This document shows positions 26,509 through 41,390 of a stretch of DNA of 41,390 bases, piece after piece. The notes beneath the pieces were generated by a model, which was not told the DNA's origin, did no database searches, and saw nothing but the letters and a program-made list of their open reading frames with translations. Where the stretch lies: assembly GCA_016177265.1 (NCBI GenBank), contig JACOVP010000005.1, forward strand, positions 1 to 41,390. The letters run 5' to 3'. The translations under genes and the position numbers were made by a program. This DNA is from Candidatus Woesearchaeota archaeon. Lineage in GTDB: Archaea; Nanobdellota; Nanobdellia; SCGC-AAA011-G17; UBA489. Each line of letters starts with the position of its first letter. Position 1 is the first letter of the stretch.

Positions 26509-26865
26509 GTGAAGACCATTTCAAAGAATCAAAAACAATGTGCTACCTGGATAGGCGCTATATTACTCGTTGTAGGTCTGTTAGGGTTTGTGACGGGTGA
26601 TATGGTTCTGTGGTTTAGTGTGAACGGCACGCATACCTGGATACATCTCTTATCTGGTATTATTGGTTTGTTTGCAGGCTTAAGTGCAAAAGGTGCTTAT
26701 GCAGGAACCTACAATAAAACCTTCGGTGTTATCTACCTTGTCATTGCTGTTTTAGGTTTCCTCAGCATTGGAGGCATAGTGGATTGGTTAGCACTGAATG
26801 CAGCAGATAACTGGTTGCACTTGGTTATTGGTGCTGTCGCAGCATGGGTTGGCTTCAAAGCGTAA
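26509..26865 (+). CDS. DUF4383-like small membrane protein
   Basis: It has four hydrophobic segments with the repeated N..W.HL..G pattern. The start is GTG, so the exact start is uncertain. Confidence 0.6.
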   Translation: MKTISKNQKQCATWIGAILLVVGLLGFVTGDMVLWFSVNGTHTWIHLLSGIIGLFAGLSAKGAYAGTYNKTFGVIYLVIAVLGFLSIGGIVDWLALNAADNWLHLVIGAVAAWVGFKA

Positions 26866-26881
26866 TTAAATTTTTTTCTTT
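26866..26881 (+). terminator. T-rich tract after the DUF4383-like gene (possible archaeal oligo-T terminator)
   Basis: The tract TTTTTTTCTTT begins 6 nt after the TAA stop, between convergent genes. Confidence 0.3.
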
Positions 26882-28039: not shown

Positions 28040-28105
28040 ACTTCCTTTGGGTTAGAAGAGATTTAAATAGCCTCTGTTGTAATACGGGAGTGGGAAAAGA
28101 AAAAA

Positions 28106-28489
28106 TCATGCGGGCTGTAAGAGTTCTGCTACTCTCTCTTCAAGGTGAGCACCACGAATTAAACGCCATGCCAATCGATCACGGTCATGAAGCTGTGTTA
28201 AGTTCCTACAACCAAGTTTGGCTATATAAAGCATAAGAGTGGAGCAGGTAAGGTAATCTTTTCGTTTTAACCCATGGGATATTGCAAGGCGATGGAGATC
28301 TGTTGCTTGACTTCGAAGATGGATAACAACACCGGGATTGATCTCTCCTAGTTCACATAAGAAATCTACAGTTTCTGACTCGCTCAGAGCTGGTCTAAAG
28401 GAAGTAGTATTGCCAGAATGGTGAACATAACCGAGAAGTATGTGATTATAATAAATTTGTCGCCCTAATGATGTCTTTTCCATTAACAT
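28106..28489 (-). CDS. Hypothetical protein
   Basis: The roughly 127 aa ORF has an ambiguous start (TTG 28501, ATG 28489 or ATG 28483) preceded by a G-run. I recognise no motifs. Confidence 0.45.
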   Translation of the reverse strand: MLMEKTSLGRQIYYNHILLGYVHHSGNTTSFRPALSESETVDFLCELGEINPGVVIHLRSQATDLHRLAISHGLKRKDYLTCSTLMLYIAKLGCRNLTQLHDRDRLAWRLIRGAHLEERVAELLQPA

Positions 28490-28542
28490 CCCCCCCAACA
28501 ATGCATAGAAAAAGAAGAAAACACAACTATATAAAGACTTCG

Positions 28543-29415
28543 CTACGTCAAAATCTCCACCACTTTCGTGAAGATCAAATGAAAGTATTTCTCTGCAAAA
28601 TCCCTTCTCGGCTTGCTATAGTGGTCTAAATAATAGGTTATAAAAGGTCCGCATTTTCGCAAGATCTCCTGCATGTTCAGGTTGTAGCATCGGGCAATAT
28701 AGCGTAAGAGTTTCTTGGCTTGCTGTTCCTTATACTTCTTGAAAGGCAGAATCACTGACAGCAGAGAAAACTCAAAGTGCAACACAATACCTAAAATGTG
28801 TGGGTCTTTCTTGACTGCTCGTTTCAGTTTATCATAGAACACTGGCCGTGGACAAATCTTTTTCATCGAAAATTCCCGTTCATAGTAGTGGAGCAAGTGC
28901 TGTCCATAACCCCGTTGAATGAGCGCTGCATTCGTATACAAATCCTTCAATAACAAGACTGCATACTGTCCTATGTTTTCCAGCAGAGGAATGAATCGTT
29001 TTTGTTGCAACCTTGTCAAGAGATTGCTGTACAGTCGCAACACTTTTCTATACGATTGATGTAGTGGATAATAAGTTCCTTTCCGCATATGCTCAAGATG
29101 CATCAGTTCATGTAACAATAATCCCTCTAATGCTTGGGCATCACGCAGTAGAAAACGGTTGAAAGAAGTCAAGATGATGAGAACTAAAAACTCTTTTCCA
29201 TAGTGATAAGAAAAAGAAACCTTCTCTACAGCGCACATGCGACGAACATAATCCCTATCTTTCCGAGGAAAAGAATGCAGAATGCTGGATACATCCTGAT
29301 GCTCGTCAACAACATACACATGCACGTCCTGAGGAACACGAAGCAGCTTCTGCACTTTCTCAAGTGAACGGTGAAAGTACGGTTCTGATAAATCCCCTAA
29401 CAACGTGAGATGCAT
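28543..29415 (-). CDS. Hypothetical protein with HExxH motif (putative zinc metallopeptidase)
   Basis: The 290 aa product contains LLHELMHLEH. A TATA-like box (29438-29447) lies 27 nt upstream of the ATG. Confidence 0.6.
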   Translation of the reverse strand: MHLTLLGDLSEPYFHRSLEKVQKLLRVPQDVHVYVVDEHQDVSSILHSFPRKDRDYVRRMCAVEKVSFSYHYGKEFLVLIILTSFNRFLLRDAQALEGLLLHELMHLEHMRKGTYYPLHQSYRKVLRLYSNLLTRLQQKRFIPLLENIGQYAVLLLKDLYTNAALIQRGYGQHLLHYYEREFSMKKICPRPVFYDKLKRAVKKDPHILGIVLHFEFSLLSVILPFKKYKEQQAKKLLRYIARCYNLNMQEILRKCGPFITYYLDHYSKPRRDFAEKYFHLIFTKVVEILT

Positions 29416-29437
29416 AGAAAATATAAAAAAGTAATGC

Positions 29438-29447
29438 TATTTAAAGA
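29438..29447 (-). promoter_or_regulatory. TATA-like box for the HExxH gene
   Basis: CTTTAAATAG on the minus strand lies about 27 nt upstream of ATG 29415. Confidence 0.4.
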
Positions 29448-29451
29448 TACA

Positions 29452-30105
29452 CTATGGTCTTCCAGGTACATAGTGATGTCCTAAACATCTGGCTTCATAC
29501 CTTCTCTCTTGAACAACATCTTTGCCTCCAACGATAATTAAATCATCCCCATAAGGAACTGGTTCTCCATCGGGAAATAACCGTTGGGTAAAATAAGCAT
29601 CTTTGCCGCAACGTCGTTCCCCAGCATGACGTTTGTAAGCACAATACGCTGTCAATGATCGAATCAGTTGGGCATATGCCAGTAATTCACCCATGTGTCT
29701 CTCTGATGTCCTGAATGGAAAAGGTTCCCCTCGAAAGCTTAAATTGAGACCGCTGGCAATCACCATAATATCTCGCTTCATCGTCAGCTCACGACAAAGA
29801 TCTACAATCTTCCCATCCAAGAACTGTATTTCATCAATACCTACAACCCGAATACAAGGCTTCTCTTCTAGTACTGCAAGAATATCCTCTGCGAAAGCAG
29901 CAGTAAGACAAGGAAGCATTGCATTATTATGGGAAACCACCTTGCTTTCTCCCGTATAGCGGGTGTCCAAAGATGGTTTAAACAAAAGCACTTTTGGAGA
30001 AGCCTCTGTATGCTCATATCTGAACATCTCCCTATGAATTCTATCGCGAAGTCGCTCTGTTTTTCCAGAAAACATGCACCCCGTAATAACCTCTAACGTA
30101 GCCAT
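29452..30105 (-). CDS. tdk: Thymidine kinase
   Basis: It has the P-loop GCMFSGKT, GIDEIQFL and C-terminal Cys pairs (CAYK..RRCG, ARC). ATG 30105 has a TATA-like box 27 nt upstream. The track ORF to 30150 is an unlikely extension. Confidence 0.85.
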   Translation of the reverse strand: MATLEVITGCMFSGKTERLRDRIHREMFRYEHTEASPKVLLFKPSLDTRYTGESKVVSHNNAMLPCLTAAFAEDILAVLEEKPCIRVVGIDEIQFLDGKIVDLCRELTMKRDIMVIASGLNLSFRGEPFPFRTSERHMGELLAYAQLIRSLTAYCAYKRHAGERRCGKDAYFTQRLFPDGEPVPYGDDLIIVGGKDVVQERRYEARCLGHHYVPGRP

Positions 30106-30127
30106 ACACTTAAAAAGACAGTGAAGA

Positions 30128-30137
30128 TTTATAAAAA
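30128..30137 (-). promoter_or_regulatory. TATA-like box for tdk
   Basis: TTTTTATAAA on the minus strand lies about 27 nt upstream of ATG 30105. Confidence 0.45.
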
Positions 30138-30256
30138 TGAGTATACTCAACTATATAAAAAGGTCAAATTCCTCTGTTTCCAGCCAAAAAGAAGCTATTC
30201 TATCCATTTCTCAAACACCAGCGATAAGTATTTATACGAGTTCTGCTATAGAGGGT

Positions 30257-30267
30257 AGTGAGGGGGT
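30257..30267 (+). repeat. 11-bp direct repeat, left copy, near the left edge of the high-GC block
   Basis: AGTGAGGGGGT is identical to 36782-36792. The match extends to GGG[T/G]AGTGAGGGGGT with one mismatch. Confidence 0.6.
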
Positions 30268-30507
30268 TGAGACAGAAAACCTAGAGTGTGAAAAGAGTCC
30301 TCTCTCTCATGCTCATAGTCATAGGAACCGGGTAGGGTGGGTTTTCTGCTATGTCTTTTCCCTAACACCTCTTTTCCCCACTCTACCTCTTCCTTGACAA
30401 TTCTGGTCTTGGTGCATTCCAGTTCAAGGCTTATAGCCTGGCCCGTGCTCGAAAACTGATAGCTGGCGGACTGTCCTCCAGGTAGCCCCGTTACCACAAG
30501 TGCGTGG

Positions 30508-30532
30508 GGGGTAGTGGGCTGGACTCTACCCC
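30508..30532 (+). repeat. Perfect 7-bp stem hairpin upstream of the integrase start
   Basis: GGGGTAG (30508-30514) pairs with CTACCCC (30526-30532) across an 11-nt loop. Confidence 0.6.
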
Positions 30533-30582
30533 AGGGTGGGGGAATGGTAGTGACAGGATCTGCTCGGGGGAGGAACGAGACC

Positions 30583-32040
30583 ATGGAGATCGAGTACATT
30601 GACGTGAACGAGGTGGAGAAACGCTTCAGGCAGGCGCTGGCGAGGTTTGAGCAACGGCCGGACGTGAGCGAGGGGAACAAGGAGCTGCTCAAGCGGTTTC
30701 TGCGGGAATCATTCTTGGGGAAGACGAATCCTGGGCGGGCGAAGAAGCGAGTCGGCTTCTCGCGACTGCAGGGCTACTTGAACTACCTGTCGACCTTGAT
30801 CCGGTTCGTCCGCAAGGACCTGGACCAGGTGACGCAGGGAGACATGGAGGGCTTCATCGAGGCGCTCGAGCGGAATGAGATCCTGTCCATCCGGCCCATC
30901 ATGTATGGTCGTTCAGGATGGAAGGTCGCGAACACCCCCTTCAGCAAGAGCCACAAGCTCCACCTCAAGATGGCTGTCCGGAAGTTCTATCGGTGGCTCC
31001 TGGGCAACAATCGGGAATACCCGCCCCTGGTGGACTGGATTGAAGTGCTCCCTGTGCACCAGGAGATCCCTGCGCTCACGGAGGAGGAGGTCAGGCAGCT
31101 GCTCGGAGCCTGTTCAAGGACCGTGCACCGCGCCCTGATCCAGATGCTCTTTGACGGTGGCTTTCGGATCGCGGAGCTCCTGAATGTGCGGCTGTGTCAT
31201 GTCCAGCTCCAGTGCGTCGACGAGGAGGCCGGGCGGAAGTGCTTCCTCGTCCGCATCCCCTTCTCGAAGACCATGCCGCGAACCATTGTTCTCCCCATGG
31301 AGACCACGACCCGATGGTTGTCCTTGTGGCTCGCAGAGCATCCTGCGCAACCTGAAGTCCGGGAGGATGGCACGATCCAGTGCGACCAACTCCAAGCCCA
31401 GCTCTTTCCCATGCCGGTGAAGCGAGCTCGCACCATCCTGAAGACAGCAGGGAAACGGGCTCTGGCCAAGCGGGTCTATCCCCACCTGATCCGCCACACC
31501 TCTGCCACTTACTGGGCGAACCGCCTTCCCTACTTCAAGTTCTGCAAGCGCTTCGGCTGGACATTGACGAGCAAGATGCCCCAGCGCTACATCGACCGCC
31601 AAGGGATTGATGACCTGGACGTGGCCAGGATCTATCGGCAGACCAAGACGCCGCGGCAACCCCAGAGTGCTCCATCACTGCCATGTCCCGCGCTTGAACG
31701 GGAGGAACCTGACCCTCGCCAGACCGTTGAAGCGGATGGCCCCCCTCCACTACTGAATGAAAGGAGTGAGGGTCGAGGGCGAGCTCCAACACCGCAGGCG
31801 CCACCTCATAGTGACCTCGAACGCCTCGAGCGTCTCGGCCAGGTGCTGTTGCAGGAGCTGTGGCGACTGAAGGATGGGCAGACCGAAAACGGAACACCGG
31901 CAGAACGGGCAACAACCCTCAATACTACGCCCGTCGACGCATCGGAGGGAATGGATAGACGCCCCCGTGAACCGCTCCCTCCATGGACAACAAATCATCG
32001 GCAGGTTGTGAAGCAACAACGGAGCGTCGGATCCTGGTGA
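30583..32040 (+). CDS. Tyrosine recombinase / integrase with long Pro/Arg-rich C-terminal tail
   Basis: The catalytic pattern is present: GFRIAELLNVR (Arg), HLIRHTSATYW (HxxR) and MPQRYIDRQG (Tyr). GGAGG lies about 10 nt upstream of ATG 30583. The track start at 30514 is GTG. Confidence 0.85.
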   Translation: MEIEYIDVNEVEKRFRQALARFEQRPDVSEGNKELLKRFLRESFLGKTNPGRAKKRVGFSRLQGYLNYLSTLIRFVRKDLDQVTQGDMEGFIEALERNEILSIRPIMYGRSGWKVANTPFSKSHKLHLKMAVRKFYRWLLGNNREYPPLVDWIEVLPVHQEIPALTEEEVRQLLGACSRTVHRALIQMLFDGGFRIAELLNVRLCHVQLQCVDEEAGRKCFLVRIPFSKTMPRTIVLPMETTTRWLSLWLAEHPAQPEVREDGTIQCDQLQAQLFPMPVKRARTILKTAGKRALAKRVYPHLIRHTSATYWANRLPYFKFCKRFGWTLTSKMPQRYIDRQGIDDLDVARIYRQTKTPRQPQSAPSLPCPALEREEPDPRQTVEADGPPPLLNERSEGRGRAPTPQAPPHSDLERLERLGQVLLQELWRLKDGQTENGTPAERATTLNTTPVDASEGMDRRPREPLPPWTTNHRQVVKQQRSVGSW

Positions 32041-32100
32041 ACCACGTGCCGCAGAATGCGCGGGATGAAGAGAACGCATGTCCTTCTCAGCCCGCGAGCG

Positions 32101-32355
32101 CTAGAATTTGTACGCATCGTGGCGGTGCCGAAGCGACCGAATGAACAGTTCATCAGAAGCACGGTCATGGTCGACGAACAGGCGGTAGGAACCGATGCGG
32201 ATCTTTCCGAAGTCAACACCCTCAAGATGCTCGATGTAACGGAGGACGTCCTTGGCGATGTCCCTGTGAAGCTTCTTGAGAATCCGTGCGCGGACATGGT
32301 GCTCAAGCTTATCTAAGGTGTCTTGAGCTTCCGGACCCCATCTAATCGACGTCAT
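32101..32355 (-). CDS. RelE/ParE-superfamily toxin
   Basis: The 84 aa product has the pattern IGSYRLFVDHD...LFIRSLRHRHDAY typical of RelE/ParE toxins. An ATGA overlap links it to the upstream antitoxin gene. Confidence 0.7.
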   Translation of the reverse strand: MTSIRWGPEAQDTLDKLEHHVRARILKKLHRDIAKDVLRYIEHLEGVDFGKIRIGSYRLFVDHDRASDELFIRSLRHRHDAYKF

Positions 32356-32564
32356 TGCACGTCGTACTTCTTGATCAGGTCCTCGTTGCTCACAAACTCA
32401 GTTCGTTTACGACGACGCGATGCTGCGACTTCGGCAATCACATCGTCCGCCACGCGGAGGTCGTCTTCGTTGACAGCGTCCTGCATGAGGAGGCGGAGCT
32501 GACGAACTTCTTTCCGGAGGCCGTGCAGTTCGCGGTGGACTTGCTGGAGCGTTACCGTTGTCAT
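32352..32564 (-). CDS. Putative antitoxin partner of the RelE-like toxin
   Basis: The 70 aa helical protein is translationally coupled upstream of the toxin. A TATA-like box (32585-32595) lies 26 nt upstream of the ATG. Confidence 0.6.
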   Translation of the reverse strand: MTTVTLQQVHRELHGLRKEVRQLRLLMQDAVNEDDLRVADDVIAEVAASRRRKRTEFVSNEDLIKKYDVQ

Positions 32565-32584
32565 GAAACTCTGGAAGAGGCGCT

Positions 32585-32595
32585 CCTATAAAAAG
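32585..32595 (-). promoter_or_regulatory. TATA-like box for the island antitoxin-toxin operon
   Basis: CTTTTTATAGG on the minus strand lies about 26 nt upstream of ATG 32564. It is an isolated A/T patch in GC-rich DNA. Confidence 0.45.
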
Positions 32596-32689
32596 ATTAC
32601 GCTTGGCGCTAGGAAGGAGAGCGAGCATCTCAGGTGATGGCTTATAAGGAATGGATCGACCGAAGGGCGAATAGTGAGAACCCTGTCCG

Positions 32690-34669
32690 ATGAACATGCC
32701 ATCCCTGCTGCGAAAACTCGAACCCCTCCTTCCAAGAGAAGTGAAACGGTGGCGTCTGATGCTTCCGTTGGTGAACGAGGACACGAGGAAACTCCTGGAG
32801 CGCCAGATCATCAGCCTAGCCCACAAGCATCTTGGGAATCACAACCAGCGGCTCTTGCTGCCACCTCCGCCAGAGAAGCTGTCCAAGGGCACGTTCAACC
32901 TCGGCACGATCCTCTATGACACGGAGAAGTGGTCATTCGCCTTGACGGAAGGAGAGCTGCTGCAGAACCTTGCCATCTTCGGTCGTTCTGGTGCAGGAAA
33001 AACGAATGTGGTCTTCCATCTCCTCCAGCAGTTTCTCAAGAAAGGCATCCCGTTCCTCTTCTTCGATTGGAAACGGACAGCACGCCATCTCCTTCCTCTC
33101 TTGAAGCACCCGGTGTTGCTCTACACGCCAGGACGAAAACTCGCTCCCTTTCCCTTCAACACCTTGATCCCGCCACCTGGTCTTGAACAGCATCTCCACG
33201 TGCAGCAGGTCCTGGACATCCTGGCAGCGGCCTACACCCTGGGTGACGGTGCCACGAGTCTCATCCAGCGCGTCCTCCAGGAATGGTACACGAAGAACGC
33301 AACACCGCCCATGATCCATGACCTCGTCCAAGAACTGCAATGCCTGAATGTGAAAGGTCGGGCTCACGGGTGGCATGCTTCGGCGGTGCGTGCACTCCAA
33401 AGTCTGGACTATGCTGACCTCGTTACTTCCACTGCTGAAGATCAGGAGGCCAGGGTCGACGAACTCCTCCACCACTCGACGATCCTCGAGCTCAATGGTC
33501 TGGGCGACAACGCGAAGCAGTTCCTCATTCCATCCATGCTCCTCTGGATCTTCAACGCCCGCCTCGCCAGGAGTGACCGAGAGCAGCTCCGCTTCGTGGT
33601 CATCGTGGAAGAGGCACACCACCTGCTCTACACGCGGAAGGGCCAGGAGTCCGCGATGGAACGCTTGGTCCGTCAATGTCGGGAGCTGGGCATCGCCATG
33701 GTCATCGTCGACCAGCACCCCCACTTGATTTCCAGCGCTGCCCTGGGTAATACCTTCACCACGATCTGCCTGAACCTCAAAGATCCCCGGGACATGAATC
33801 GTGCTGCTGCCCTCTGCCTCCTCGATGAAGAGGACCGTGGACACTTGAGCACGCTGCCCGTTGGTCATGGGATTGTGAAGCTCCAGAACCGCTGGCACCA
33901 ACCCTTCCTCGTTCGATTCCCTCTGGTGCAGGTGGAGAAGGGAGCAGTCACCAATGATCGCCTTCACGCCTTCCTCATTGGCAAGAGACCACGTTCGGGA
34001 CGAAAACCGCCTTTGTCGTTGAAGGAAGAGGGCGTTCGGCAGGTTCGGTTTGTGGATGTCATTCCTTCAGAGGATGCATGCCGTCTGATCGAGGATTGTG
34101 TCCTCCATCCCTTTGACGGGGTGAAGGCACGCTACCAACGCCTGAGTTGGAGTGCGGATAAGGGAACGAGGCTGGTGAGGGAGCTGGTGGCTGCAGGACT
34201 CCTGGAGTTGGAAAGGGTTGACCTTGGCACCACGAGGAAGACCTTGCTTCGGCCCAGTCGCAGTGCTAGGCTCGCCCTTGGCCTTGACCACCATCCCCAG
34301 CATGAGTCCATCGCCCATGAGTTTTGGAAGTACCACGTCGCTGCCCAGTTTCTGGAAGCGGAGTACCAGGTCGAGATCGAGGCTCCTCGTCCAAGGGGAG
34401 GAGGACGGGTGGACGTGCTGGCCAGGAAGGGCGAGGAATCTGTTGCCATCGAAGTCGAGACTGGGAAGAGTGACGTGGTGGGGAACGTGAAAGCTGACCT
34501 GGCAGCGGGGTTCACCAGGGTGGTGGTTATCGCCACGGATGATGTTGCGAGGGAGTCCATCGAGCGACAGCTAGGGAGGGCTGGACTGCTGATGACAGAA
34601 CGAGTGATCGTCGCCGACTTGGACATGGTCCTCCGTCACCCGGCGATAGACTACCGGAGGAAGCCCTAA
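32690..34669 (+). CDS. HerA/FtsK-like (DUF87-type) P-loop ATPase fused to winged-helix and PD-(D/E)xK-like nuclease modules
   Basis: It has Walker A GRSGAGKT (32981-33004), Walker B FVVIVEEAH and VIVDQHP. The C-terminal part reads GVKARYQRL...LVRELVAAGLL (wHTH-like) followed by VDVLA...AIEVETGKS (nuclease-like). Confidence 0.85.
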   Translation: MNMPSLLRKLEPLLPREVKRWRLMLPLVNEDTRKLLERQIISLAHKHLGNHNQRLLLPPPPEKLSKGTFNLGTILYDTEKWSFALTEGELLQNLAIFGRSGAGKTNVVFHLLQQFLKKGIPFLFFDWKRTARHLLPLLKHPVLLYTPGRKLAPFPFNTLIPPPGLEQHLHVQQVLDILAAAYTLGDGATSLIQRVLQEWYTKNATPPMIHDLVQELQCLNVKGRAHGWHASAVRALQSLDYADLVTSTAEDQEARVDELLHHSTILELNGLGDNAKQFLIPSMLLWIFNARLARSDREQLRFVVIVEEAHHLLYTRKGQESAMERLVRQCRELGIAMVIVDQHPHLISSAALGNTFTTICLNLKDPRDMNRAAALCLLDEEDRGHLSTLPVGHGIVKLQNRWHQPFLVRFPLVQVEKGAVTNDRLHAFLIGKRPRSGRKPPLSLKEEGVRQVRFVDVIPSEDACRLIEDCVLHPFDGVKARYQRLSWSADKGTRLVRELVAAGLLELERVDLGTTRKTLLRPSRSARLALGLDHHPQHESIAHEFWKYHVAAQFLEAEYQVEIEAPRPRGGGRVDVLARKGEESVAIEVETGKSDVVGNVKADLAAGFTRVVVIATDDVARESIERQLGRAGLLMTERVIVADLDMVLRHPAIDYRRKP

Positions 34670-35307
34670 TGGAAACTACATACCGTGTTATCGACTTGAC
34701 GGTTAACTTCGAGAAGCGGCGATTGATCCTCCACGAGATCGAGGCCAATAAACAAGCTCTTCTCGAGCTCCTGAACCCACAAGGAGGATACAATATTGGC
34801 ATCCGAAAGGAGGCTCTCATCCTTGATTTCGCGGCGGGTCGCTTCATCGCGGAGGAGACCGGGATCATTGCTTTCCATTTTCGTGGCGCTACTATCCAAA
34901 AAGTCCAGCAACCCATTATTGCATGTACATCGCACATTTGCGAGACCTTAGGCTGGCCCAGAAACAATGAACCAATCTCCGTGAACATAGAAATCGTCTC
35001 CGAGACGACTAAAGCAAACGCTGGTTCATTTACTGCGAAGCATCTAGATGTTCCCGCCCTAGAAACCCTCCTGTCGCAGAAGATTCCCCATGCTGGGCTG
35101 ACGCTCTTCCTAACGCCATTGGATACGCAACGACCACGAGAAGATGTGCGGGTGAGAATTGAGCCACTGGCCAAGGAGCCGCATCAGAAGCTCTACGTTC
35201 GCCTCTCATTGGACGCAGAGGACACGCGAATCGCCAAAATCGAAGCGCATCTGGCTAGGTGCGATACACTTCTCGGGCAGATACAGGAGGCGATAAGCGC
35301 ATCATGA
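34669..35307 (+). CDS. Hypothetical protein (operon gene 2)
   Basis: The 212 aa ORF has an ATG that overlaps the ATPase stop (TAATG). I recognise no motifs. Confidence 0.65.
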   Translation: METTYRVIDLTVNFEKRRLILHEIEANKQALLELLNPQGGYNIGIRKEALILDFAAGRFIAEETGIIAFHFRGATIQKVQQPIIACTSHICETLGWPRNNEPISVNIEIVSETTKANAGSFTAKHLDVPALETLLSQKIPHAGLTLFLTPLDTQRPREDVRVRIEPLAKEPHQKLYVRLSLDAEDTRIAKIEAHLARCDTLLGQIQEAISAS

Positions 35308-36272
35308 GCGTTGAACGTAGAGTGACGTTGAGATTAGGGACACTCGGCGCGAGGCAGAACAGTGGGATATCTAGATGGAAGGCGGTAAGCGAGCTGGAGG
35401 ATTGGAAAGCTTTAAGAACTCTGTTGACGAGGGAAACTGTTGGATCAAAGGCATGGGAGGAGGGCCGGCGATTTGGGGAGAGTAATACACTTACGGCACG
35501 TGAACGGATGATGGAGAAGCTCGAGGATGGGAGGACAGAGGACAAAGCGCTTTACGTCGCGCTTATTCAGAAGTATGAGAAGGAGTTGCGCACTAGGGCT
35601 GTGGCCGGGGAAAACAACATAGAGAGAGAGGCGTGCATCACCCATCTAGGAGTGCTCTACGATGACAAGCCGCAGGCACTGCAGGAGTATGGGGATGTGG
35701 ATCGACAGATCCTAGAGCAGATTCTGAAAGAAGGTGGACCATTTAGACAAATCCGGTCGGTCTTTCTGGCATTGCGCAGGAGACTAGAGAAGGGGAGTGG
35801 GTTCACGTGTGCGGAGCTTGAGCAGATCCTCGAAGGTGAGCGAGTCGTCATGCCGTCAACGACGCATATGGATCCGTTTGTGCGTAGGCGCGGTAGTCGA
35901 CTGCAGGAAGAGGGCTATAGATTGTTGCTGCGGTACTTCGGTGGGAAAGTAGGGGTAAAGGTGAAGGTGTATTCCGTGCGCGAGTATCATGCTGTATGTG
36001 AGAGAGGCGACCCGGATTGGTTGATTCGAGGAGAAGAAGGGACGGTGGAAGCACGAGCATTTAGAGCGTTGCGTTCCTTCGCGGGGATGCTGGAGAGCAT
36101 GAGAGCCTGGAATAGGGTGGAAGCATCGCTGCGTACGAGGGATCCAAGCCTGAGGGAAATGCGGGGGTGGGAAGTGAAAGAGACGATGGAGCGTCTGTTT
36201 GAGCGGGTCCGCAAGGGGGTAGAGGCGAAGTATAAGAGATGGGAGGAGTTTTGGCGGGGAGTGCGGAGATAA
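35304..36272 (+). CDS. Hypothetical Arg/Glu-rich helical protein (operon gene 3)
   Basis: It is 322 aa from ATG 35304, which overlaps the upstream stop (ATGA). The track start at 35259 is GTG. I recognise no motifs. Confidence 0.65.
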   Translation: MSVERRVTLRLGTLGARQNSGISRWKAVSELEDWKALRTLLTRETVGSKAWEEGRRFGESNTLTARERMMEKLEDGRTEDKALYVALIQKYEKELRTRAVAGENNIEREACITHLGVLYDDKPQALQEYGDVDRQILEQILKEGGPFRQIRSVFLALRRRLEKGSGFTCAELEQILEGERVVMPSTTHMDPFVRRRGSRLQEEGYRLLLRYFGGKVGVKVKVYSVREYHAVCERGDPDWLIRGEEGTVEARAFRALRSFAGMLESMRAWNRVEASLRTRDPSLREMRGWEVKETMERLFERVRKGVEAKYKRWEEFWRGVRR

Positions 36273-36727
36273 TGATCGCGGTGGATTCCGATGTCTTCTT
36301 GTCCGCGAAAGTGTTCAGCGGAAAGGATGAGAGGTCGAGGAAGAGCAACGAGTTTCTGGTTGCGGTCACCGGAGGGAATATGTGCACGACAGTGATTAAT
36401 GTTTTTGAGGTGTGTGGCGTTGCCGGTCCACATCTTGAGGAGGAGGAGCTACGGAAGTGGTTGCATAACTTTCGCGGGACGTTTGGTGTACAGATTCTGT
36501 TGCCGCGAGACGCGGCTCTTCCGCTTGGTTCCTTCTTTCGGATCTTGCCAACAATATTATTTGGTAAGCTTCACAAGGGGATGCGGTTTGGAGATGCTTT
36601 GATAATAGGAATTGTGGAAGGACATCCTGAGATACGAGAATTTGTTACGTGGAATGTGAAGGATTTCGATGGGAGGACGCGTCTGCGAGTGTCATCGCCA
36701 GCGGATTACTTGGCACGGGTGAGGTGA
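36272..36727 (+). CDS. PIN-domain nuclease (VapC-like; operon gene 4)
   Basis: It is 151 aa from ATG 36272, which overlaps the upstream stop (TAATG). The PIN acidic pattern is IAVDSDVF, VFEVCG, FGDALIIG and TWNVKDFD. Confidence 0.75.
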   Translation: MIAVDSDVFLSAKVFSGKDERSRKSNEFLVAVTGGNMCTTVINVFEVCGVAGPHLEEEELRKWLHNFRGTFGVQILLPRDAALPLGSFFRILPTILFGKLHKGMRFGDALIIGIVEGHPEIREFVTWNVKDFDGRTRLRVSSPADYLARVR

Positions 36728-36781
36728 CTGACTGGGGGGAGGCGAGATTCAGGGGATCATGGGAGGCACGGTGCTGTGGGG

Positions 36782-36792
36782 AGTGAGGGGGT
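36782..36792 (+). repeat. 11-bp direct repeat, right copy, 55 nt after the PIN gene stop
   Basis: AGTGAGGGGGT is identical to 30257-30267. Confidence 0.6.
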
Positions 36793-37071
36793 GAAGGGAG
36801 CATCTCAGCGAAACCTTTTTTAAGGATGACGCCGTGCCAAGTGCATGGGCCATGTCGAGTCAGGGAGAGTCCCGCAGTATGCGCAGGAGTTGTTGAAGTC
36901 AGTTCGAGAGAAGACGTGCTACCCTCTGGTCTGGCGACAACAACCCGGCCTCGGTCACGATTCGGAAGTCAAGGTTGCCCGTCCTGGCGAGAGATGCCAT
37001 GTGTTGCTCTACCGGCCTGAGTACCGGGACTACGAGCTCCACTTCGTGGTCAGGATCAGGGAAGAGCGTGA

Positions 37072-37713
37072 TCAACACGTTCCTCGTCGGCCAATACCTG
37101 CAACGAGGTGGCAGGGCTTGGGTGTGCGGATGACCTGGTAGAGGAGAGTTGCGAGCCGTTCCATCTCGCAGGTGATCGCGCGAATCTGTGGTTCAGTGAT
37201 TCCGTCCCAATAATATGCGAGGCGGCCGAGGACGCCGGTGACCCAGCACCCGATGGCATCGGACAGCTCAGGTTCCCTTGCCTCAAGATCCTGCCACCAA
37301 CGTGCGCGAACCTTGAGATCCTGGTCCTGGGCGATCGTCCGCCAGATCAAGTCGCGGGTGACAAGCGGATTTTCTTCATCTATAAACCCTCGCTCAATAT
37401 AAACCACCTTCTTTTTTTCTCGTTTGAACAAAAACTCATAATAGGCGGACTCATCTGTATCTTGAAATCTCCCCCATCTAGTGACATCAAAAAGAAGTAC
37501 ATAGTCAAATCGTTGTTCTTTAGTATATTGAAACAATGCTAAAAATCCAGGTCTATTTGCGTTTAGACCAGTCTTGCCGGCGTCTTGAAACTCTTTGATG
37601 ATACGGATGTTATGTTTCTTAGCAAATTTTTGGACTTCTTCTCTTTGAACGGGTATTGAGAACTCTTGTTTGTCCTCTGCAGAGTGACGATAATATGCTA
37701 CAGCTGTTTTCAT
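37072..37713 (-). CDS. Serine recombinase (resolvase/invertase catalytic domain); the 3' half lies in the high-GC block, so the gene is possibly chimeric or truncated
   Basis: The N-terminus reads AVAYYRHSAEDKQEFSIPVQ (catalytic Ser region), then DAGKTGLNANRPGF and LLFDVTRWGRF. A TATA-like box lies 26 nt upstream of the ATG. Composition switches inside the ORF at about 37368, and I see no recognisable DNA-binding domain after that point. Confidence 0.6.
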   Translation of the reverse strand: MKTAVAYYRHSAEDKQEFSIPVQREEVQKFAKKHNIRIIKEFQDAGKTGLNANRPGFLALFQYTKEQRFDYVLLFDVTRWGRFQDTDESAYYEFLFKREKKKVVYIERGFIDEENPLVTRDLIWRTIAQDQDLKVRARWWQDLEAREPELSDAIGCWVTGVLGRLAYYWDGITEPQIRAITCEMERLATLLYQVIRTPKPCHLVAGIGRRGTC

Positions 37714-37734
37714 TACTTATCAAAAAATTTATTG

Positions 37735-37744
37735 ATTTATAAAT
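37735..37744 (-). promoter_or_regulatory. TATA-like box for the serine recombinase gene
   Basis: The palindromic ATTTATAAAT lies about 26 nt upstream of ATG 37713. Confidence 0.4.
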
Positions 37745-37792
37745 GTACTTCTGTCGGTAGAAATTCTAGAAGAACGTACAGAAGAGCAAAAG

Positions 37793-37802
37793 ACTTATAA
37801 GG
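37793..37802 (+). promoter_or_regulatory. TATA-like box for the small antitoxin-like ORF
   Basis: ACTTATAAGG lies about 26 nt upstream of ATG 37823. Confidence 0.35.
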
Positions 37803-37822
37803 TCCAAAGGTATAGATGTTGT

Positions 37823-37981
37823 ATGAAACAAGAAATGATTCAAATAGCAAAGAAGGAATACGAGGAACTATTAGAAGAAGTTGGTATCTTGAGAAATCCT
37901 GCAATGATGGAGGCTATCAGAGAGAGTGACGAAGCTAAAAAGAAAGGTGTAAAAACCTGGAAGCTCAAAACTCATCCATAG
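37823..37981 (+). CDS. Small antitoxin-like protein (Phd/YefM C-terminal-like EYEELLE...ILRNP pattern)
   Basis: This 52 aa ORF is not in the track. A TATA-like box (37793-37802) lies 26 nt upstream of the ATG. The sequence is MKQEMIQIAKKEYEELLEEVGILRNPAMMEAIRESDEAKKKG. Confidence 0.45.
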   Translation: MKQEMIQIAKKEYEELLEEVGILRNPAMMEAIRESDEAKKKGVKTWKLKTHP

Positions 37982-38026
37982 ATCTTGTGAGAGCCAACAG
38001 CAACCACTAACAAAAAGGTAAAACCA

Positions 38027-38449
38027 ATGGAAGTCTATATCCACACCTTTACTCCAGAACCCTATGAAGTGAGAAAACCTATTCCTGTCATACTACAAAG
38101 AGAAGGGAAAGACAACTGTACAGCAGGCTGGTATGATGCAAATATCCATTCTGGCGGTGCGAATGAACAAGAAGCATTTGACAACCTAAAATCACTCGTG
38201 CTCGATGCATTTGAGTCATTAAGAAGTGAAAAACCAGAATCTCTTGGACCTGAACCAAAAAGATGCTTAGCAGTACTGAATGAATATCTCTATCCTAAAA
38301 GAGATACCAAAGATCCGTCATCACCCCCCAATCTTAAAGAAAAACTCGCAGCAATCGATCAACTATATCATCTATTGGATGATGCAACCCCTGAACAAAG
38401 AAAGGGCTTTTTTGAAAGCATTCGCCGAAGACCTTGGCATACCGAGTAA
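38027..38449 (+). CDS. Hypothetical protein, possibly HicB/UPF0150-like fold
   Basis: The 140 aa product has the segment PVILQREGKDNCTAGWYDANIHSGGANEQEAFDNLKSLV, which resembles the beta-beta-alpha core of HicB-like antitoxins. The functional call is tentative. Confidence 0.55.
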   Translation: MEVYIHTFTPEPYEVRKPIPVILQREGKDNCTAGWYDANIHSGGANEQEAFDNLKSLVLDAFESLRSEKPESLGPEPKRCLAVLNEYLYPKRDTKDPSSPPNLKEKLAAIDQLYHLLDDATPEQRKGFFESIRRRPWHTE

Positions 38450-38533
38450 TTCTGAAATAAGGGAGGTCTCAGAGAGAGTAGCAAAACCCTTTTAAACCGA
38501 ACTCTATATTCTAATATAATGGTTAGAAGAGAT

Positions 38534-39592
38534 ATGCAAAGAATAAGAATACTGGGCGGTATAGGCATAGTCCTCTGCATACTTGCCTTCATTGTAGTAA
38601 CCCTGGTTATTCTGCAGTCTCCTGGGCCGTTGCCAGTTGGACAAGAAAATCAAACACAAGAACCACAACAAGAAGGAAATCACACAGTGGTACAAGAAGA
38701 AGAAAATGAACAACCAAAGCAGAAACTCATCTACATCCTCCATAAGGTGCCAAATGTGCTGAGCATCGTAGACTTAGAAAAAAATGAAACCCTCCAAGAG
38801 ATTACCTTAGGCAAAGGACCGCAAGAGATGTTCTATGATAAAGGAACCAATAATCTCTACATTACCAACAAAGCAGCTAACACCATCAGCGTTGTGAACC
38901 TTGAGAAGAACGAGATTGTCCGCACCATCAAGGGAGGCAATAGTCCAGAAGGCATTATAGTCACTGACAAGAAAATTTATGTCACAAATCCAGGAGATCG
39001 AGTAGTGCTCGTCATCAACAAAGCATTGGGCTCCATAGATAAAGAGATTCAGGTTGGTGAAGATCCCTCCCACATGCTGCTCAGCCAGGATCAGCGAAAG
39101 CTCTATGTGTTGAATAGGGGTTCCGATGATATTACTATTATCAACACGAATATCGATGCCTTCATCGACGTATGGTTCGCTGGAGACAATCCAGAGCGCT
39201 TCGCAATAAATCCTCATGAGCGGTTTATGTATGTAAGCAGCCTGAATGGGCTGATCACGATTCTTCCCATGAAACAACCGAAGGAATATAGGGAAATGCG
39301 TGTCGGTCTTGGCGCATCGGAAATTGCTTTTACGCCAAATAATATTCTTGCGATAACAGTGAACAGTGATGAGAACACCATATCCTTAACCAGCTTGACG
39401 CAGGAAATGCTGCTTGCAACAGTCGATGTCGGAGTAAATCCTAGTGACGTTGTGATCACTGGAGATGGAAAAACTGCCTATGTGAGCAATGCTGGTTCTA
39501 ATACCATTTCAATCATTGACTTGCAGCAGAAAATACGGATAGCAGAATTTCCTGTCAATAAAGATCCGCAACGACTAATACTGAGAGAATAA
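38534..39592 (+). CDS. Membrane-anchored YVTN-repeat beta-propeller protein
   Basis: An N-terminal TM segment is followed by repeated units of the LYITN/IYVTN/LYVLN/AYVSN ... ISVV/ITII/ISIID type. ATG 38534 (TATA-like box about 27 nt upstream) or ATG 38519 could be the start. Confidence 0.8.
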   Translation: MQRIRILGGIGIVLCILAFIVVTLVILQSPGPLPVGQENQTQEPQQEGNHTVVQEEENEQPKQKLIYILHKVPNVLSIVDLEKNETLQEITLGKGPQEMFYDKGTNNLYITNKAANTISVVNLEKNEIVRTIKGGNSPEGIIVTDKKIYVTNPGDRVVLVINKALGSIDKEIQVGEDPSHMLLSQDQRKLYVLNRGSDDITIINTNIDAFIDVWFAGDNPERFAINPHERFMYVSSLNGLITILPMKQPKEYREMRVGLGASEIAFTPNNILAITVNSDENTISLTSLTQEMLLATVDVGVNPSDVVITGDGKTAYVSNAGSNTISIIDLQQKIRIAEFPVNKDPQRLILRE

Positions 39593-39618
39593 GGGGAGTG
39601 GAGTTCTTAGAAAAAAGA

Positions 39619-39711
39619 TTAGATATCAGTAAAGACCTTGAATATAAAGTACATAATGACCATACCAAAACCAATCCACGCTGCCGTGTCCCAAAAGTTG
39701 TCCCAGTTCAT
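39619..39711 (-). CDS. Possible 30-aa single-TM micropeptide
   Basis: The ORF MNWDNFWDTAAWIGFGMVIMYFIFKVFTDI has an A/T box 25 nt upstream of its ATG. There is no other support. Confidence 0.25.
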   Translation of the reverse strand: MNWDNFWDTAAWIGFGMVIMYFIFKVFTDI

Positions 39712-39822
39712 ACAACAGAGAGAAAAGTTGGAATTTATGAACTTTGCGGCTAAAAAGGCGAAAAATCCGTAGAAAGAGGCGGAAAGATTCCAAGAGAACA
39801 GTTCATCGAATCTTGCTATTAT

Positions 39823-40239
39823 TTATTGTTGTTGGTTTACTCTTACTTCTAAACCTTCATTTCTTTTCCGAACTCCTAATCTTCCTAACTCATACAATCC
39901 AGAAGCTACATTGAGTCCTAGTAAAACTGCTACAGGGATATAGTTTTTGTTTTGAAATAAATCCACTGCAGAATAAAGACAAACACCCATATCAGTTAGA
40001 GAACCAATAAAAATCCCTAATTGCCACCCGCTGCCAGCTATAGTATCTTGATCCCATACTACTTCACATCTGTCTGCTAGGGTCTGATCTTCTCTACACT
40101 TTCTTATAAACGTAGGAATCCGAAACAGTAAAGCAACTGCACCATACAATCCTTTGACGAAATACTGCGAAAGTTCTCCTATTTGTTTTCTAGGTAGTGC
40201 ATCCCAGAGTCTTTGTTCAACAGATTTGTAGTCAGTCAT
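39823..40239 (-). CDS. Hypothetical membrane protein
   Basis: The roughly 138 aa ORF has several hydrophobic segments. ATG 40239 is the likely start, since the track start at 40248 is GTG. An A/T box lies upstream. Confidence 0.55.
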   Translation of the reverse strand: MTDYKSVEQRLWDALPRKQIGELSQYFVKGLYGAVALLFRIPTFIRKCREDQTLADRCEVVWDQDTIAGSGWQLGIFIGSLTDMGVCLYSAVDLFQNKNYIPVAVLLGLNVASGLYELGRLGVRKRNEGLEVRVNQQQ

Positions 40240-40373
40240 TTTGCTCACCAGGAGGAGGTACTAACTCATATAAGAAGTTTCCGTTTGTTTAAAAAAAGAC
40301 CGCCACAAGCTTTAAATAGGAGTTCCACCATAAAATATATATCTCATATACCATATATGGGTTTAGGAAGACC

Positions 40374-40493
40374 ATGTACCAAGCCGAATGCACCCAGTGC
40401 GGAGCAATCTTCACGTTAGATCAGCCTGTAGTCCCTGAATGTGTAGAGTGTGTCTGCCAAGGAAAACAGTTTAACATTTTGACTGTTGCATAA
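40374..40493 (+). CDS. Possible 39-aa zinc-ribbon micropeptide
   Basis: The sequence MYQAECTQCGAIFTLDQPVVPECVECVCQGKQFNILTVA has CxxC ... CxxCxC. It is not in the track and is supported by Cys spacing only. Confidence 0.3.
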   Translation: MYQAECTQCGAIFTLDQPVVPECVECVCQGKQFNILTVA

Positions 40494-40541
40494 AACCAGG
40501 ACAACAGCAAAAGACGTTTTCTAAGAGAGAAGTAAATGACA

Positions 40542-41390
40542 CTATAACAAGAGCAGGTAAGTCAATCCATAGCCCAAGAAACAGCCAGCACTTAAGATGG
40601 GCATCGCAGGATAGTACTTGTTCTTCTCACTGGCGATTAACAAAAAACTCAATGCTAGTGCGCTTCCTAAAACAATCAACACAGCAGGCCAGAAAGAATA
40701 TTCCATCAAGATGACGCTCGCAAAAAGCAGAGGAAATCCAATGTCTCCTCCTCCCAAAATAGCAGTCTTCTCTCCTTTTTTGCCATAGGGAATTAATAAT
40801 CCAGCAAATAACTGCATCTTCGCCTGGAATTCAGCCATATTCACCATGTGTTTTGTTTTTCTCACAGCAATGAAGTCATAGGCAGAGATGATCAGGAGCA
40901 AAACAGATATGCTAAACACACTTAATACTGGAGTAAAGACAGCAGCCAATCCCCCATAGATGAAAAGTTCTGTGAAATTATGAAGCAAATGGTTAATGCG
41001 CAACACTTTCAGCAAAGCCAGGACAAAGCCGAGAATAAGGACAATCCAGTAGGTATCCAGAAATGCGCCAAAGGCAATCAGCAAACAGAACCACACAGAC
41101 AGGAAAAACCAGAGCTTCCATAGCCAGCGCGCGCCAAACTTAATGATGAGCAAGACCAACAAGGTAGCTACAAAAAGAATAGCAATAATGGGAAGATAAG
41201 AAGTTTCCTTTGCAAACTGTGGCCGTTCAATGTCATACGGCAACGGTTTATAGACTTCTTCCTGGTAGGTGATATTTCCTACAGTCCTTGTCTCAAGCGT
41301 CACGTATTCGCTCACGATGAACAACCCAAGGAATTGTGCAACCACGAACAAGAGAACTAGCACCATGGTGACGGACAATGTATGCTTCAT
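40542..41390 (-). CDS. Presenilin/signal-peptide-peptidase-like intramembrane aspartyl protease (archaeal PSH type)
   Basis: It is polytopic with the YD motif (SAYDFIAV), the GxGD motif (LGGGDIGFP) and a PAL-like motif (YPAMP). The ATG sits exactly at the window edge, so the 5' end could extend further. Confidence 0.8.
   Translation of the reverse strand: MKHTLSVTMVLVLLFVVAQFLGLFIVSEYVTLETRTVGNITYQEEVYKPLPYDIERPQFAKETSYLPIIAILFVATLLVLLIIKFGARWLWKLWFFLSVWFCLLIAFGAFLDTYWIVLILGFVLALLKVLRINHLLHNFTELFIYGGLAAVFTPVLSVFSISVLLLIISAYDFIAVRKTKHMVNMAEFQAKMQLFAGLLIPYGKKGEKTAILGGGDIGFPLLFASVILMEYSFWPAVLIVLGSALALSFLLIASEKNKYYPAMPILSAGCFLGYGLTYLLLL

What the first reader, a model, noticed from the sequence alone, without database searches (positions are those of the whole stretch)
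37072..37713. Right junction of the high-GC block lies inside a serine recombinase ORF
The first approximately 115 codons (37713 down to about 37369) are A/T-rich and encode a clear resolvase-type catalytic domain: YYRHS...Q, GKTGLNANRPGF and FDVTRWGRF. From about 37368 downstream the same open frame continues in about 60 % GC DNA. For approximately 25 more residues (LVTRDLIWRTIAQDQDLKVRARWW) it still resembles the helix that follows the catalytic core. It then loses resemblance and has no recognisable HTH. Three explanations are possible. The island may have inserted into, or recombined with, a resident recombinase gene. This may be a hybrid gene formed between two recombinase homologs. Or the contig may be a chimera joined in a conserved gene.
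Basis: partly seen in the sequence, partly recalled or inferred. Interest (0 to 1): 0.6.

Follow-up and report, generated by a model that had tools for sequence, protein, structure and literature searches.

The report
Dead recombinase stub at island edge
The half AT-rich, half GC-rich gene is real DNA and not an assembly error: it is the first quarter of a mobile-element recombinase gene, fused in frame to the edge of a second, GC-rich mobile element inserted at the same site in a tiny archaeon's chromosome, which is ordinary decay of stacked mobile DNA.

Summary
The ORF (37072-37713, minus strand, 213 aa) and the GC switch are real. Residues 1-118 are the catalytic domain of a large serine recombinase (LSR). 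The closest full-length relative (494 aa, 71% identical) stops matching at V118, position 37360. The GC-rich tail (95 aa) has no recombinase similarity, so the reported "helix" resemblance is not supported.

The contig is not a chimera. Independent single-run Logan contigs from three runs cross both edges of the GC block. In four same-genus genomes the two flanking genes (thymidine kinase and a beta-propeller protein) are direct neighbours.

About 8 kb is inserted right after a conserved hairpin non-coding element. It has two parts:
- A (30406-37358, 57% GC) carries a tyrosine integrase.
- B (37365-38447, 38% GC) holds the LSR stub and two small genes.

The junctions carry TGACAATTCTG (left), TGACAA (A|B) and AATTCTG (right), which are the two halves of one 11-bp attachment core (chance about 3e-4).

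The best reading is two mobile elements stacked at one site. The LSR element was cut down by deletion or captured as a fragment, which made an accidental in-frame fusion with no recombinase function. The missing LSR part is nowhere in the genome.

The parts
30313..30399 (+). Conserved core of a hairpin non-coding element (candidate ncRNA gene) that ends ...CCTTGACA. A TATA-like TTTATA lies at 30231-30236. The insertion starts immediately after this element.
   Evidence: It is 86-90% identical across genera of the family, and homology always ends at 30399. The consensus fold is a long stem (GTCA...TGAC) around a conserved loop. No Rfam family or tRNA matches it.
30395..30405 (.). Left junction J1: TGACAATTCTG, the inferred attL core, identical to the modelled native attB.
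   Evidence: Homology with relatives stops at 30399. The 11-mer occurs once in the window. The empty-site model aligns colinearly with G001, G003 and G004.
30406..37358 (.). Element A, the GC-rich (57%) integrative island. It carries a tyrosine integrase, a ParE-like toxin gene with a small upstream partner gene, a HerA-like ATPase-nuclease and orphan cargo.
   Evidence: Composition. Pfam hits. The integrase is 52% identical to integrases next to ATPase homologues on Planctomycetota contigs.
30583..32040 (+). Tyrosine integrase of element A (485 aa). GGAGG lies 10 nt upstream and the gene starts 178 nt from the left core.
   Evidence: PF00589, E=1.4e-10. The exact protein is on Logan contig L007. 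Homologues are listed.
37072..37713 (-). The fusion ORF of the finding (213 aa).
   Evidence: The identical ORF is on Logan contig L005 from SRR12113384.
37360..37713 (-). Large serine recombinase fragment, codons 1-118: the catalytic domain only, with the YYRHS serine motif. An archaeal-type TATA (TTTATAAA, 37736-37743) lies about 30 nt upstream of the ATG.
   Evidence: Pfam, PDB, family HMM aligned to HMM positions 12-129. P0002 is 71% identical over residues 2-123. The DNA alignment to L006 ends at 37367. Codon alignment.
37072..37359 (-). GC-rich tail of the ORF (codons 119-213 plus the stop). It is island-derived and an orphan sequence with gene-like codon usage.
   Evidence: Codon log-odds is 0.20 bits per codon in this frame, against -0.2 to -0.3 in the out-of-register frames and 0.13-0.33 for island genes. 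No homologue or family was found.
37359..37364 (.). Junction J2 (A|B): TGACAA, the left half of the 11-bp core. It overlaps LSR codons L117-V118.
   Evidence: The chance of a shared 6-mer at two breakpoints is 1.4-3%.
37365..38447 (.). Segment B (38% GC), the remnant of an LSR-bearing mobile element. It holds the LSR stub, a 52-aa gene (37823-37981, +, weak Phd/YefM-like) and a 140-aa gene (38027-38449, +).
   Evidence: It is absent between the same flanking genes in G001-G004, G012 and G013. GC. The Phd_YefM hit has E=0.069, below threshold.
38448..38454 (.). Right junction J3: AATTCTG, the right half of the core. It overlaps the stop codon of the 140-aa gene, and native spacer DNA resumes here.
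   Evidence: The chance of a shared 7-mer is 0.8-1.3%; both repeats together, 3e-4.
36845..37141 (.). An ambiguous small-gene region just downstream of the fusion ORF. It holds a 59-aa ORF (36899-37078, -), whose start overlaps the fusion ORF's stop, and an antisense 98-aa ORF (36845-37141, +).
   Evidence: Both frames have gene-like codon scores. Gene callers chose different ones on different contigs. No family was found.

Best explanation
The junction is real chromosomal DNA of a DPANN (Woesearchaeota-type) archaeon. Two unrelated mobile elements lie side by side in one integration site, directly after a conserved hairpin non-coding element between the thymidine-kinase and beta-propeller genes.

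- Element A is GC-rich and carries a tyrosine integrase. It is bounded by the core TGACAATTCTG on the left and by the first half of that core (TGACAA) on the right.
- Segment B is what is left of an AT-rich element that carried a large serine recombinase. Only the promoter, codons 1-118 and two upstream small genes survive. B ends at the second half of the core (AATTCTG).

The recombinase gene was therefore cut in one of two ways. Either a microhomology (TGACAA) deletion occurred between A's right att site and the inside of the gene after the two elements had stacked in tandem, or a fragment of the LSR element was captured inside the att core.

The cut end happens to be in frame with coding-like island DNA on the same strand. 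This gives a 213-aa ORF that consists of a bare catalytic domain plus 95 unrelated residues. It lacks the alpha-E helix, the recombinase domain and the zinc-ribbon DNA-binding parts, so it cannot act as a recombinase.

Shown: the junctions are real, the site is empty in relatives, the extent of LSR homology, and the repeats. Inferred: the order and mechanism of the events, and the loss of function.
For: 1. Independent assemblies.
- Logan contig L005/L012 (SRR12113384) equals window 37035-40101 at 100% identity.
- L011 (SRR12113383) equals 37214-41390, identical except for a SNP patch at 41085-41324.
- L008 (SRR12113430) equals 26624-30664 and crosses the left junction.
- L007 and L021 cover the island interior.

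2. Synteny. TK and the 357-aa beta-propeller gene are divergent neighbours 350-500 bp apart in G001, G002 and G004, and also in G003. The same conserved element lies between them.

3. Boundaries. Homology to relatives ends at 30399 and resumes at about 38449-38455. The joined flanks align colinearly with the native intergenic DNA of relatives.

4. Repeats. TGACAATTCTG, TGACAA and AATTCTG lie at the three junctions. Simulated chance is 0.8-1.3% for the 7-mer, 1.4-3% for the 6-mer and 3e-4 for both.

5. LSR homology ends at V118. The tail is unrelated to LSRs.

6. The LSR C-terminal part and the ParB/RepB partner genes seen beside two relatives are absent from the genome.

7. B is host-like or AT-rich, as is the nearest LSR relative's contig (30% GC). 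The LSR family is sporadic in the phylum, found in 4 of 400 genomes.

8. Tandem accretion followed by decay of integrated elements at one att site is a documented pattern (PMC5704250).
Against: - The three runs have neighbouring accession numbers and may share a site, and the Logan contigs may come from the same reads as the MAG.
- The att-core inference rests on 6-11-nt repeats noticed after the fact.
- No second copy of the full 11-mer exists, and no excised circle or empty-site allele was seen.
- Related Planctomycetota elements do not carry this core.
- Whether the GC-rich tail is a truncated island gene, a complete small gene starting at TTG 37350, or antisense of a plus-strand gene is unresolved.
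- The genome is only about 71% complete, so absence of the LSR C-terminus is not absolute.
Confidence: 0.7

Rival explanations
1. A and B were already joined in another host or on an episome. The composite then integrated as one unit, through the tyrosine integrase, at the 7-bp core AATTCTG. On this view the A|B junction is internal to one mobile element and older than the integration.
For: The outer junctions have the classic attL/attR form with a shared 7-mer (30399-30405 and 38448-38454). The integrase gene sits next to the left core. Transfer of accreted composites is documented (PMC5704250).
Against: TGACAA at the A|B junction, which is exactly the left half of the native 11-mer, would have to be coincidence (1.4-3%). 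A (57% GC) and B (38% GC) show no compositional blending, so they cannot have travelled together for long.
Confidence: 0.13
2. Assembly chimera: foreign GC-rich bacterial DNA was joined to the archaeal contig inside a conserved recombinase gene.
For: The genome is a fragmented MAG (57 contigs, about 71% complete). The island's integrase and ATPase have their named close relatives on Planctomycetota contigs. Reads could not be inspected.
Against: The block is sandwiched between two genes that are neighbours in four congeneric genomes, and it sits at a precise intergenic point. Single-run k-mer contigs from three runs pass through both junctions by 150-330 nt or more. The GC side holds no recombinase sequence that could have served as a shared k-mer.
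Confidence: 0.03
3. Hybrid gene: homologous recombination between an AT-rich and a GC-rich recombinase homologue. The tail would then be the diverged alpha-E region of a second recombinase.
For: After ...ENPLV the tail reads TRDLIWRTI against NDLIKTI in the nearest relative. Some phmmer alignments run on to residues 130-167.
Against: The family HMM run at maximum sensitivity stops at L117 and gives no second domain. The tail alone scores E>=0.66 against 149 relatives. The invariant MAAxYSxxLSxKV motif, the Recombinase domain and the zinc ribbon are all missing, and the ORF ends after 95 residues.
Confidence: 0.02
4. Simple disruption: the island inserted into an intact resident recombinase gene, and the 3' part was displaced to the island's other side.
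For: The 5' part of the gene and its promoter are intact up to the junction.
Against: The left side of the island is the conserved hairpin element and then the TK gene, with no recombinase remnant. No LSR C-terminal sequence exists in the genome. The gene is not resident in any of the six relatives examined.
Confidence: 0.03

Closest known systems
Tandem accretion and decay of integrative elements at one att site (ICE/IME/CIME arrays such as ICESt1-related islands; reviewed in PMC5704250)
   Same: Two unrelated elements with different recombinases lie side by side at the end of an RNA-type gene. Each is delimited by copies or part-copies of a short core. One of them has decayed and lost its recombinase function.
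   Different: The host is a DPANN archaeon, not a bacterium. The target is an unannotated hairpin element and not a tRNA. The middle att copy is only a half-core that lies inside the remnant's recombinase gene. No conjugation or mobilisation genes are present.
Large serine recombinases (TnpX, TP901-1 integrase, CcrA/CcrB)
   Same: The N-terminal 118 residues are a typical LSR catalytic domain with the serine nucleophile motif. The closest full-length relatives are 440-520-aa proteins with Resolvase and Recombinase domains.
   Different: Everything after the catalytic core is missing: the alpha-E helix, the recombinase domain, and the zinc ribbon with its coiled coil. The ORF is a fragment and not a family member in any functional sense.
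tRNA-targeting genomic islands integrated by tyrosine integrases
   Same: The integrase gene lies next to one end. Short direct repeats lie at the ends. The insertion is at the 3' end of a structured RNA-like gene, and the site is empty in relatives.
   Different: The core is very short (11 bp). The right copy is split by 1.08 kb of foreign DNA. The element is 16 GC points richer than its host.
SSV1-type archaeal integrases, whose gene is split by integration
   Same: A recombinase gene appears cut exactly at an element boundary in an archaeal chromosome.
   Different: Here the cut gene is a serine recombinase and belongs to the other element. No second half exists at the opposite end. The tyrosine integrase of element A is intact.

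Membership tests
Large serine recombinase (functional member) | N-terminal resolvase-type catalytic domain with the serine nucleophile | tested here: met
   PF00239 matches residues 4-116, E=9e-17. The YYRHS motif aligns with the family consensus YvRmSt. TnpX and TP901-1 are the best PDB hits.
Large serine recombinase (functional member) | Long alpha-E helix following the catalytic core (family motif MAAxYSxxLSxKV) | tested here: not met
   The family HMM alignment ends at L117, and the motif is absent from the ORF and from all six frames of the window.
Large serine recombinase (functional member) | C-terminal Recombinase domain (PF07508) and zinc-ribbon/coiled-coil DNA-binding region | tested here: not met
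   There is no PF07508 hit. tblastn with the C-terminal parts of six relatives against the whole genome gives E>=1.5. Relatives P0002, P0012 and P0015 do carry PF07508.
Integrative element mobilised by a tyrosine integrase (element A) | Tyrosine recombinase gene next to one end | tested here: met
   PF00589 protein at 30583-32040, 178 nt from the left core.
Integrative element mobilised by a tyrosine integrase (element A) | Direct repeats (att core) at both ends and an empty site in relatives | tested here: inconclusive
   The empty site is shown in six relatives. The left core is 11 nt, but the right copy is split into TGACAA and AATTCTG by segment B. The joint chance is 3e-4, but the repeats are short and were noticed post hoc.
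Integrative element mobilised by a tyrosine integrase (element A) | Excision and circularisation (attP junction, or an empty attB in the population) | not testable with these tools
Exact-protein look-ups found only occupied-site contigs.
Assembly chimera | Junction not reproduced by independent assembly, and flanks unrelated | tested here: not met
   Both junctions lie inside Logan single-run contigs from three runs. The flanks are neighbours in congeners.
SSV-type split integrase | Both halves of the recombinase gene present at opposite ends of the integrated element | tested here: not met
   There is no C-terminal half at 38448 (the 140-aa gene ends there) or at 30400, nor elsewhere in the genome.

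The most novel reading that the evidence does not exclude
Element A may belong to a recurrent class of high-GC integrative elements with a Planctomycetota-like integrase. These would cross the domain boundary and integrate site-specifically, through very short (about 11 bp) cores, at the ends of structured RNA genes of AT-rich DPANN archaea. Here the target would be the 3' end of an undescribed, family-wide conserved hairpin ncRNA. The recombinase stub would then mark competition or replacement between a native archaeal LSR element and an incoming bacterial-type element at one hot spot. A second DPANN genome (G617) has an integrase 50% identical to A's, sitting exactly where 30% GC DNA switches to 56% GC beside an intron-containing tRNA.
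Probability: 0.3. Interest if true: 0.6.

Novelty: new member of a known kind. Interest (0 to 1): 0.3.

Why it matters
For genome curation, the result shows that this contig is sound. The 213-aa "resolvase" should be annotated as a pseudogene or fusion remnant and not as a recombinase.

For biology, the junction itself is ordinary decay of mobile elements. It does, however, pin down to the base an integration hot spot in a DPANN archaeon. It shows that a 57% GC element with bacterial-type relatives is truly integrated in a 41% GC archaeal chromosome. It also exposes a conserved non-coding hairpin element as the apparent target. These points bear on how ultra-small archaea acquire foreign DNA.

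Tried and rejected
Logan contigs found by exact-protein look-up served as a substitute.
- tRNA or known RNA at the left edge: none found.
- Long direct repeats between the island edges: none above 11 nt.
- Homologues of the 95-aa tail. All of the following were negative:
  - word-index search of 5.8 billion proteins;
  - JGI metagenome contigs;
  - Pfam and NCBIfam;
  - the loci of three island relatives and four LSR-type loci.
- A weak tblastn hit of an LSR C-terminal part to 37126-36989 (E=1.6) suggested a frameshifted recombinase remnant in the GC block. The family HMM at maximum sensitivity found nothing there, so this was rejected.
- The tail gene continuing across the att core in a circular form of A: the frame stays open, but the extension has non-coding codon usage (-0.13 bits per codon). 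Rejected.
- The single-protein scan of genome contigs with the ATPase found nothing.
- Strain variants gave no test of selection on the ORF, because all SNPs lie elsewhere.
- No island-free allele was found.
- Segment B as a complete LSR element integrated at an AA dinucleotide: rejected, because its left end lies inside the LSR gene and no C-terminal half exists.

Full report
**1. What is there**

The ORF exists as described: 37072..37713 on the minus strand, 213 aa. Pfam Resolvase matches residues 4-116 but only profile positions 1-108 of 145. The best solved-structure matches are catalytic domains of large serine recombinases (TnpX, TP901-1 integrase).

GC content drops from about 0.6 to about 0.37 within one 60-nt step near 37360-37390. 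The GC-rich block runs from about 30400 to 37367 at 57% GC, against 40-41% in both flanks.

The window is the whole contig C25 of a 688-kb, 57-contig, about 71% complete genome. Earlier notes call the organism a Woesearchaeota (DPANN) archaeon. No other contig has such a block, apart from one 2.5-kb stretch on C9 that I guess is rRNA but did not check.

**2. Where recombinase homology stops**

An exhaustive HMMER search of 1.84 billion representatives found 4478 relatives, but none covers the ORF beyond its own entry. The best, P0002 (494 aa, Resolvase + Recombinase domains), is 71% identical over query residues 2-123.
- Its DNA (L006, 30% GC) aligns without gaps to window 37698-37367 and then stops.
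- The codon alignment shows identity through ...GF.DEENPLV (V118 = 37362-37360). After that only a scattered DLI/TI remains, and the family's conserved MAAxYSxxLSxKV alpha-E motif is absent.

I built an HMM from 66 full-length relatives and ran it at maximum sensitivity against all six frames of the window. It matched only residues about 2-117 of this ORF and nothing else. The 95-aa tail alone has no hit among 149 relatives.

The C-terminal three quarters of the recombinase are found nowhere in the genome. The same holds for the ParB/RepB-like genes that follow it in two relatives.

**3. Not a chimera**

As a substitute I looked up exact proteins in Logan single-run assemblies.
- Right junction: L005/L012 (SRR12113384) equals window 37035-40101 at 100% identity. 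L011 (SRR12113383) equals 37214-41390 and beyond, identical except for a SNP patch at 41085-41324.
- Left junction: L008 (SRR12113430) equals 26624-30664.
- Interior: L007 and L021 cover 30454-33954 and 31203-37243.

Independently, in the same-genus genomes G001, G002 and G004 the thymidine-kinase gene (left flank) and the 357-aa beta-propeller gene (right flank) are divergent neighbours 350-500 bp apart. G003 shows the same arrangement. A foreign piece placed precisely between two genes that are natural neighbours cannot be a mis-join.

**4. The insertion site**

The intergenic region of the relatives has three parts:
- a conserved promoter-like box;
- a conserved element whose 87-nt core (window 30313-30399) is 86-90% identical across genera, folds into a long stem around a conserved loop, and always ends ...CCTTGACA;
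- a short variable spacer and the beta-propeller gene's promoter.

The element matches no Rfam family or tRNA. In the window, homology stops at 30399 and resumes at about 38449-38455. Joining the two flanks gives a sequence that aligns colinearly with the native DNA of G001, G003 and G004. About 8.05 kb is therefore inserted, in two parts:
- A, GC-rich, 30406-37358.
- B, 37365-38447, 38% GC, holding the recombinase stub, a 52-aa gene (weak Phd/YefM-like, E=0.069, below threshold) and a 140-aa gene.

Relatives lack B at this site too, so the recombinase is not a resident gene. The family is sporadic in the phylum, present in 4 of 400 genomes, none close.

**5. The junction sequences**

- J1 (30395-30405) reads TGACAATTCTG.
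- J2, the A|B junction of this finding (37359-37364), reads TGACAA and overlaps recombinase codons L117-V118.
- J3 (38448-38454) reads AATTCTG and overlaps the stop codon of the 140-aa gene.

J2 and J3 are the two halves of the J1 11-mer. Random position pairs in this window share a 7-mer within 8 nt in 0.8% of trials and a 6-mer in 1.4-3%. Both occur together in 0.03% of trials.

The simplest reading is as follows. The native attB is TGACAATTCTG at the end of the hairpin element. Element A, with its tyrosine integrase 178 nt from J1, is flanked by that core. The right-hand core copy is interrupted by B.

Two histories give this result:
- A and a full LSR element stacked in tandem, followed by a TGACAA-microhomology deletion from A's right att site into the recombinase gene.
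- Capture of a fragment of the LSR element inside the core, before or after A arrived.

I cannot separate these two. A third history has A+B formed elsewhere and integrated as a unit through AATTCTG. It requires the TGACAA at J2 to be coincidence and sits badly with the unblended composition of A and B. Tandem accretion followed by decay is well documented in bacteria (PMC5704250).

**6. The tail**

In the ORF's frame, the GC-rich 95 codons score 0.20 bits per codon on the island's codon usage. That is within the range of the island's real genes (0.13-0.33) and well above the out-of-register frames. The DNA is therefore probably coding, but the sequence is an orphan.

It may be a 5'-truncated island gene, a complete small gene starting at TTG 37350, or, less likely, antisense of a plus-strand gene. 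Extension across the att core in a circular model is open but non-coding in character. The in-frame fusion needs no selection; its chance is about 1 in 6.

The stub keeps an archaeal-type TATA box about 30 nt upstream of its ATG, so the ORF may be expressed. Without the alpha-E helix and the DNA-binding domains it cannot work as a recombinase. That last point rests on established knowledge of serine recombinases.

**7. Origin of A**

A's integrase is 52% identical to integrases that directly precede homologues of its HerA-like ATPase (59-60% identical) on 60-63% GC contigs. One of these is a Planctomycetes MAG, GCA_016713175.1.

A 50% identical integrase also sits in another DPANN genome of the same class (G617). 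There, 30% GC DNA switches to 56% GC beside an intron-containing tRNA, but that block runs to the contig end and cannot be verified.

Earlier scan notes report similar high-GC, Planctomycetota-like islands at DPANN tRNA genes, and ultrashort att cores. These notes are leads, not evidence.

**8. Verdict**

The chimera and hybrid-gene readings are rejected. The feature is a recombinase pseudogene stub, created where a decayed serine-recombinase element meets the attachment site of a tyrosine-integrase island at a shared integration site.

This is a known kind of event in an unusual host. The more interesting points are the base-precise hot spot, the unknown hairpin element it targets, and confirmation that the high-GC island is truly integrated in the archaeal chromosome.

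Noticed in passing
window 30231-30402 (+); also G001:C78, G002:C20, G003:C117, G004:C18, G008:C4, G012:C17, G013:C1: A conserved non-coding element lies upstream of the beta-propeller gene. It has a TATA-like box and an 87-nt core, 86-90% identical across genera, that folds as a long GTCA...TGAC stem around a conserved CU-rich loop (CUUUUCCCUAACACCUCUUUUCCCC) and ends in ACA. It has no Rfam match. It is a candidate undescribed DPANN ncRNA and the apparent integration target.
   Followed up: partly
G617:C5:71468-85135 (loci L044, L051, L052): A second DPANN genome of the same class has an integrase 50% identical to the island's. It sits exactly where about 30% GC DNA switches to about 56% GC, next to the 5' end of an intron-containing tRNA. 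The GC-rich block is at least 13.6 kb and runs to the contig end, so whether it is a real insertion or a chimera is open.
   Followed up: partly
window 32101-32564 (-): An 84-aa ParE-family toxin gene (Pfam 23.7 bits, cut-off 23) and an upstream 70-aa partner lie between the integrase and the ATPase. In the Planctomycetota relatives the integrase and ATPase genes overlap directly, with nothing between them.
   Followed up: partly
loci L040 (GCA_031556455.1) and L042 (JGI 3300024423): Two relatives of this recombinase family are followed on the same strand by two ParB_N/RepB-like genes, a possible conserved three-gene module. One relative also has a divergent small HTH gene upstream, mirroring the 52-aa gene here.
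   Followed up: partly
window 28899-28969, 29247-29288, 41085-41324: All differences between the window and the Logan contigs of the three runs fall in three tight SNP clusters (6, 7 and 31 changes, mostly synonymous in the last). The sequence is otherwise identical. They look like strain-level recombination patches.
   Followed up: no
window 30463-30471 and 37337-37345; 30415-30435: The 9-mer CTGGCGGAC occurs in inverted orientation 60-70 nt inside the left end and 14-22 nt inside the right end of element A (a 20-nt imperfect inverted repeat). A 21-nt motif near the left end resembles, in reverse orientation, a repeated motif upstream of the integrase in the Planctomycetota relatives (E=0.007). 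These are possible integrase-binding sites, but the significance is marginal.
   Followed up: partly
window 30367/30368 and 30453/30454: Logan contigs of SRR12113383 and SRR12113384 both end at 30367, and the island contig of SRR12113384 starts at 30454. The 86 nt around the left junction are therefore unassembled in those two runs, although they are continuous in SRR12113430. No repeat of 31 nt or more explains this. It may be a population variant at the junction.
   Followed up: partly
locus L011, beyond window end 41390: The Logan contig extends the contig by about 1.2 kb. It completes the signal-peptide-peptidase gene (305 aa) and adds a DUF3368 (PIN-like) and UPF0175 pair, probably a toxin-antitoxin system.
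   Followed up: no
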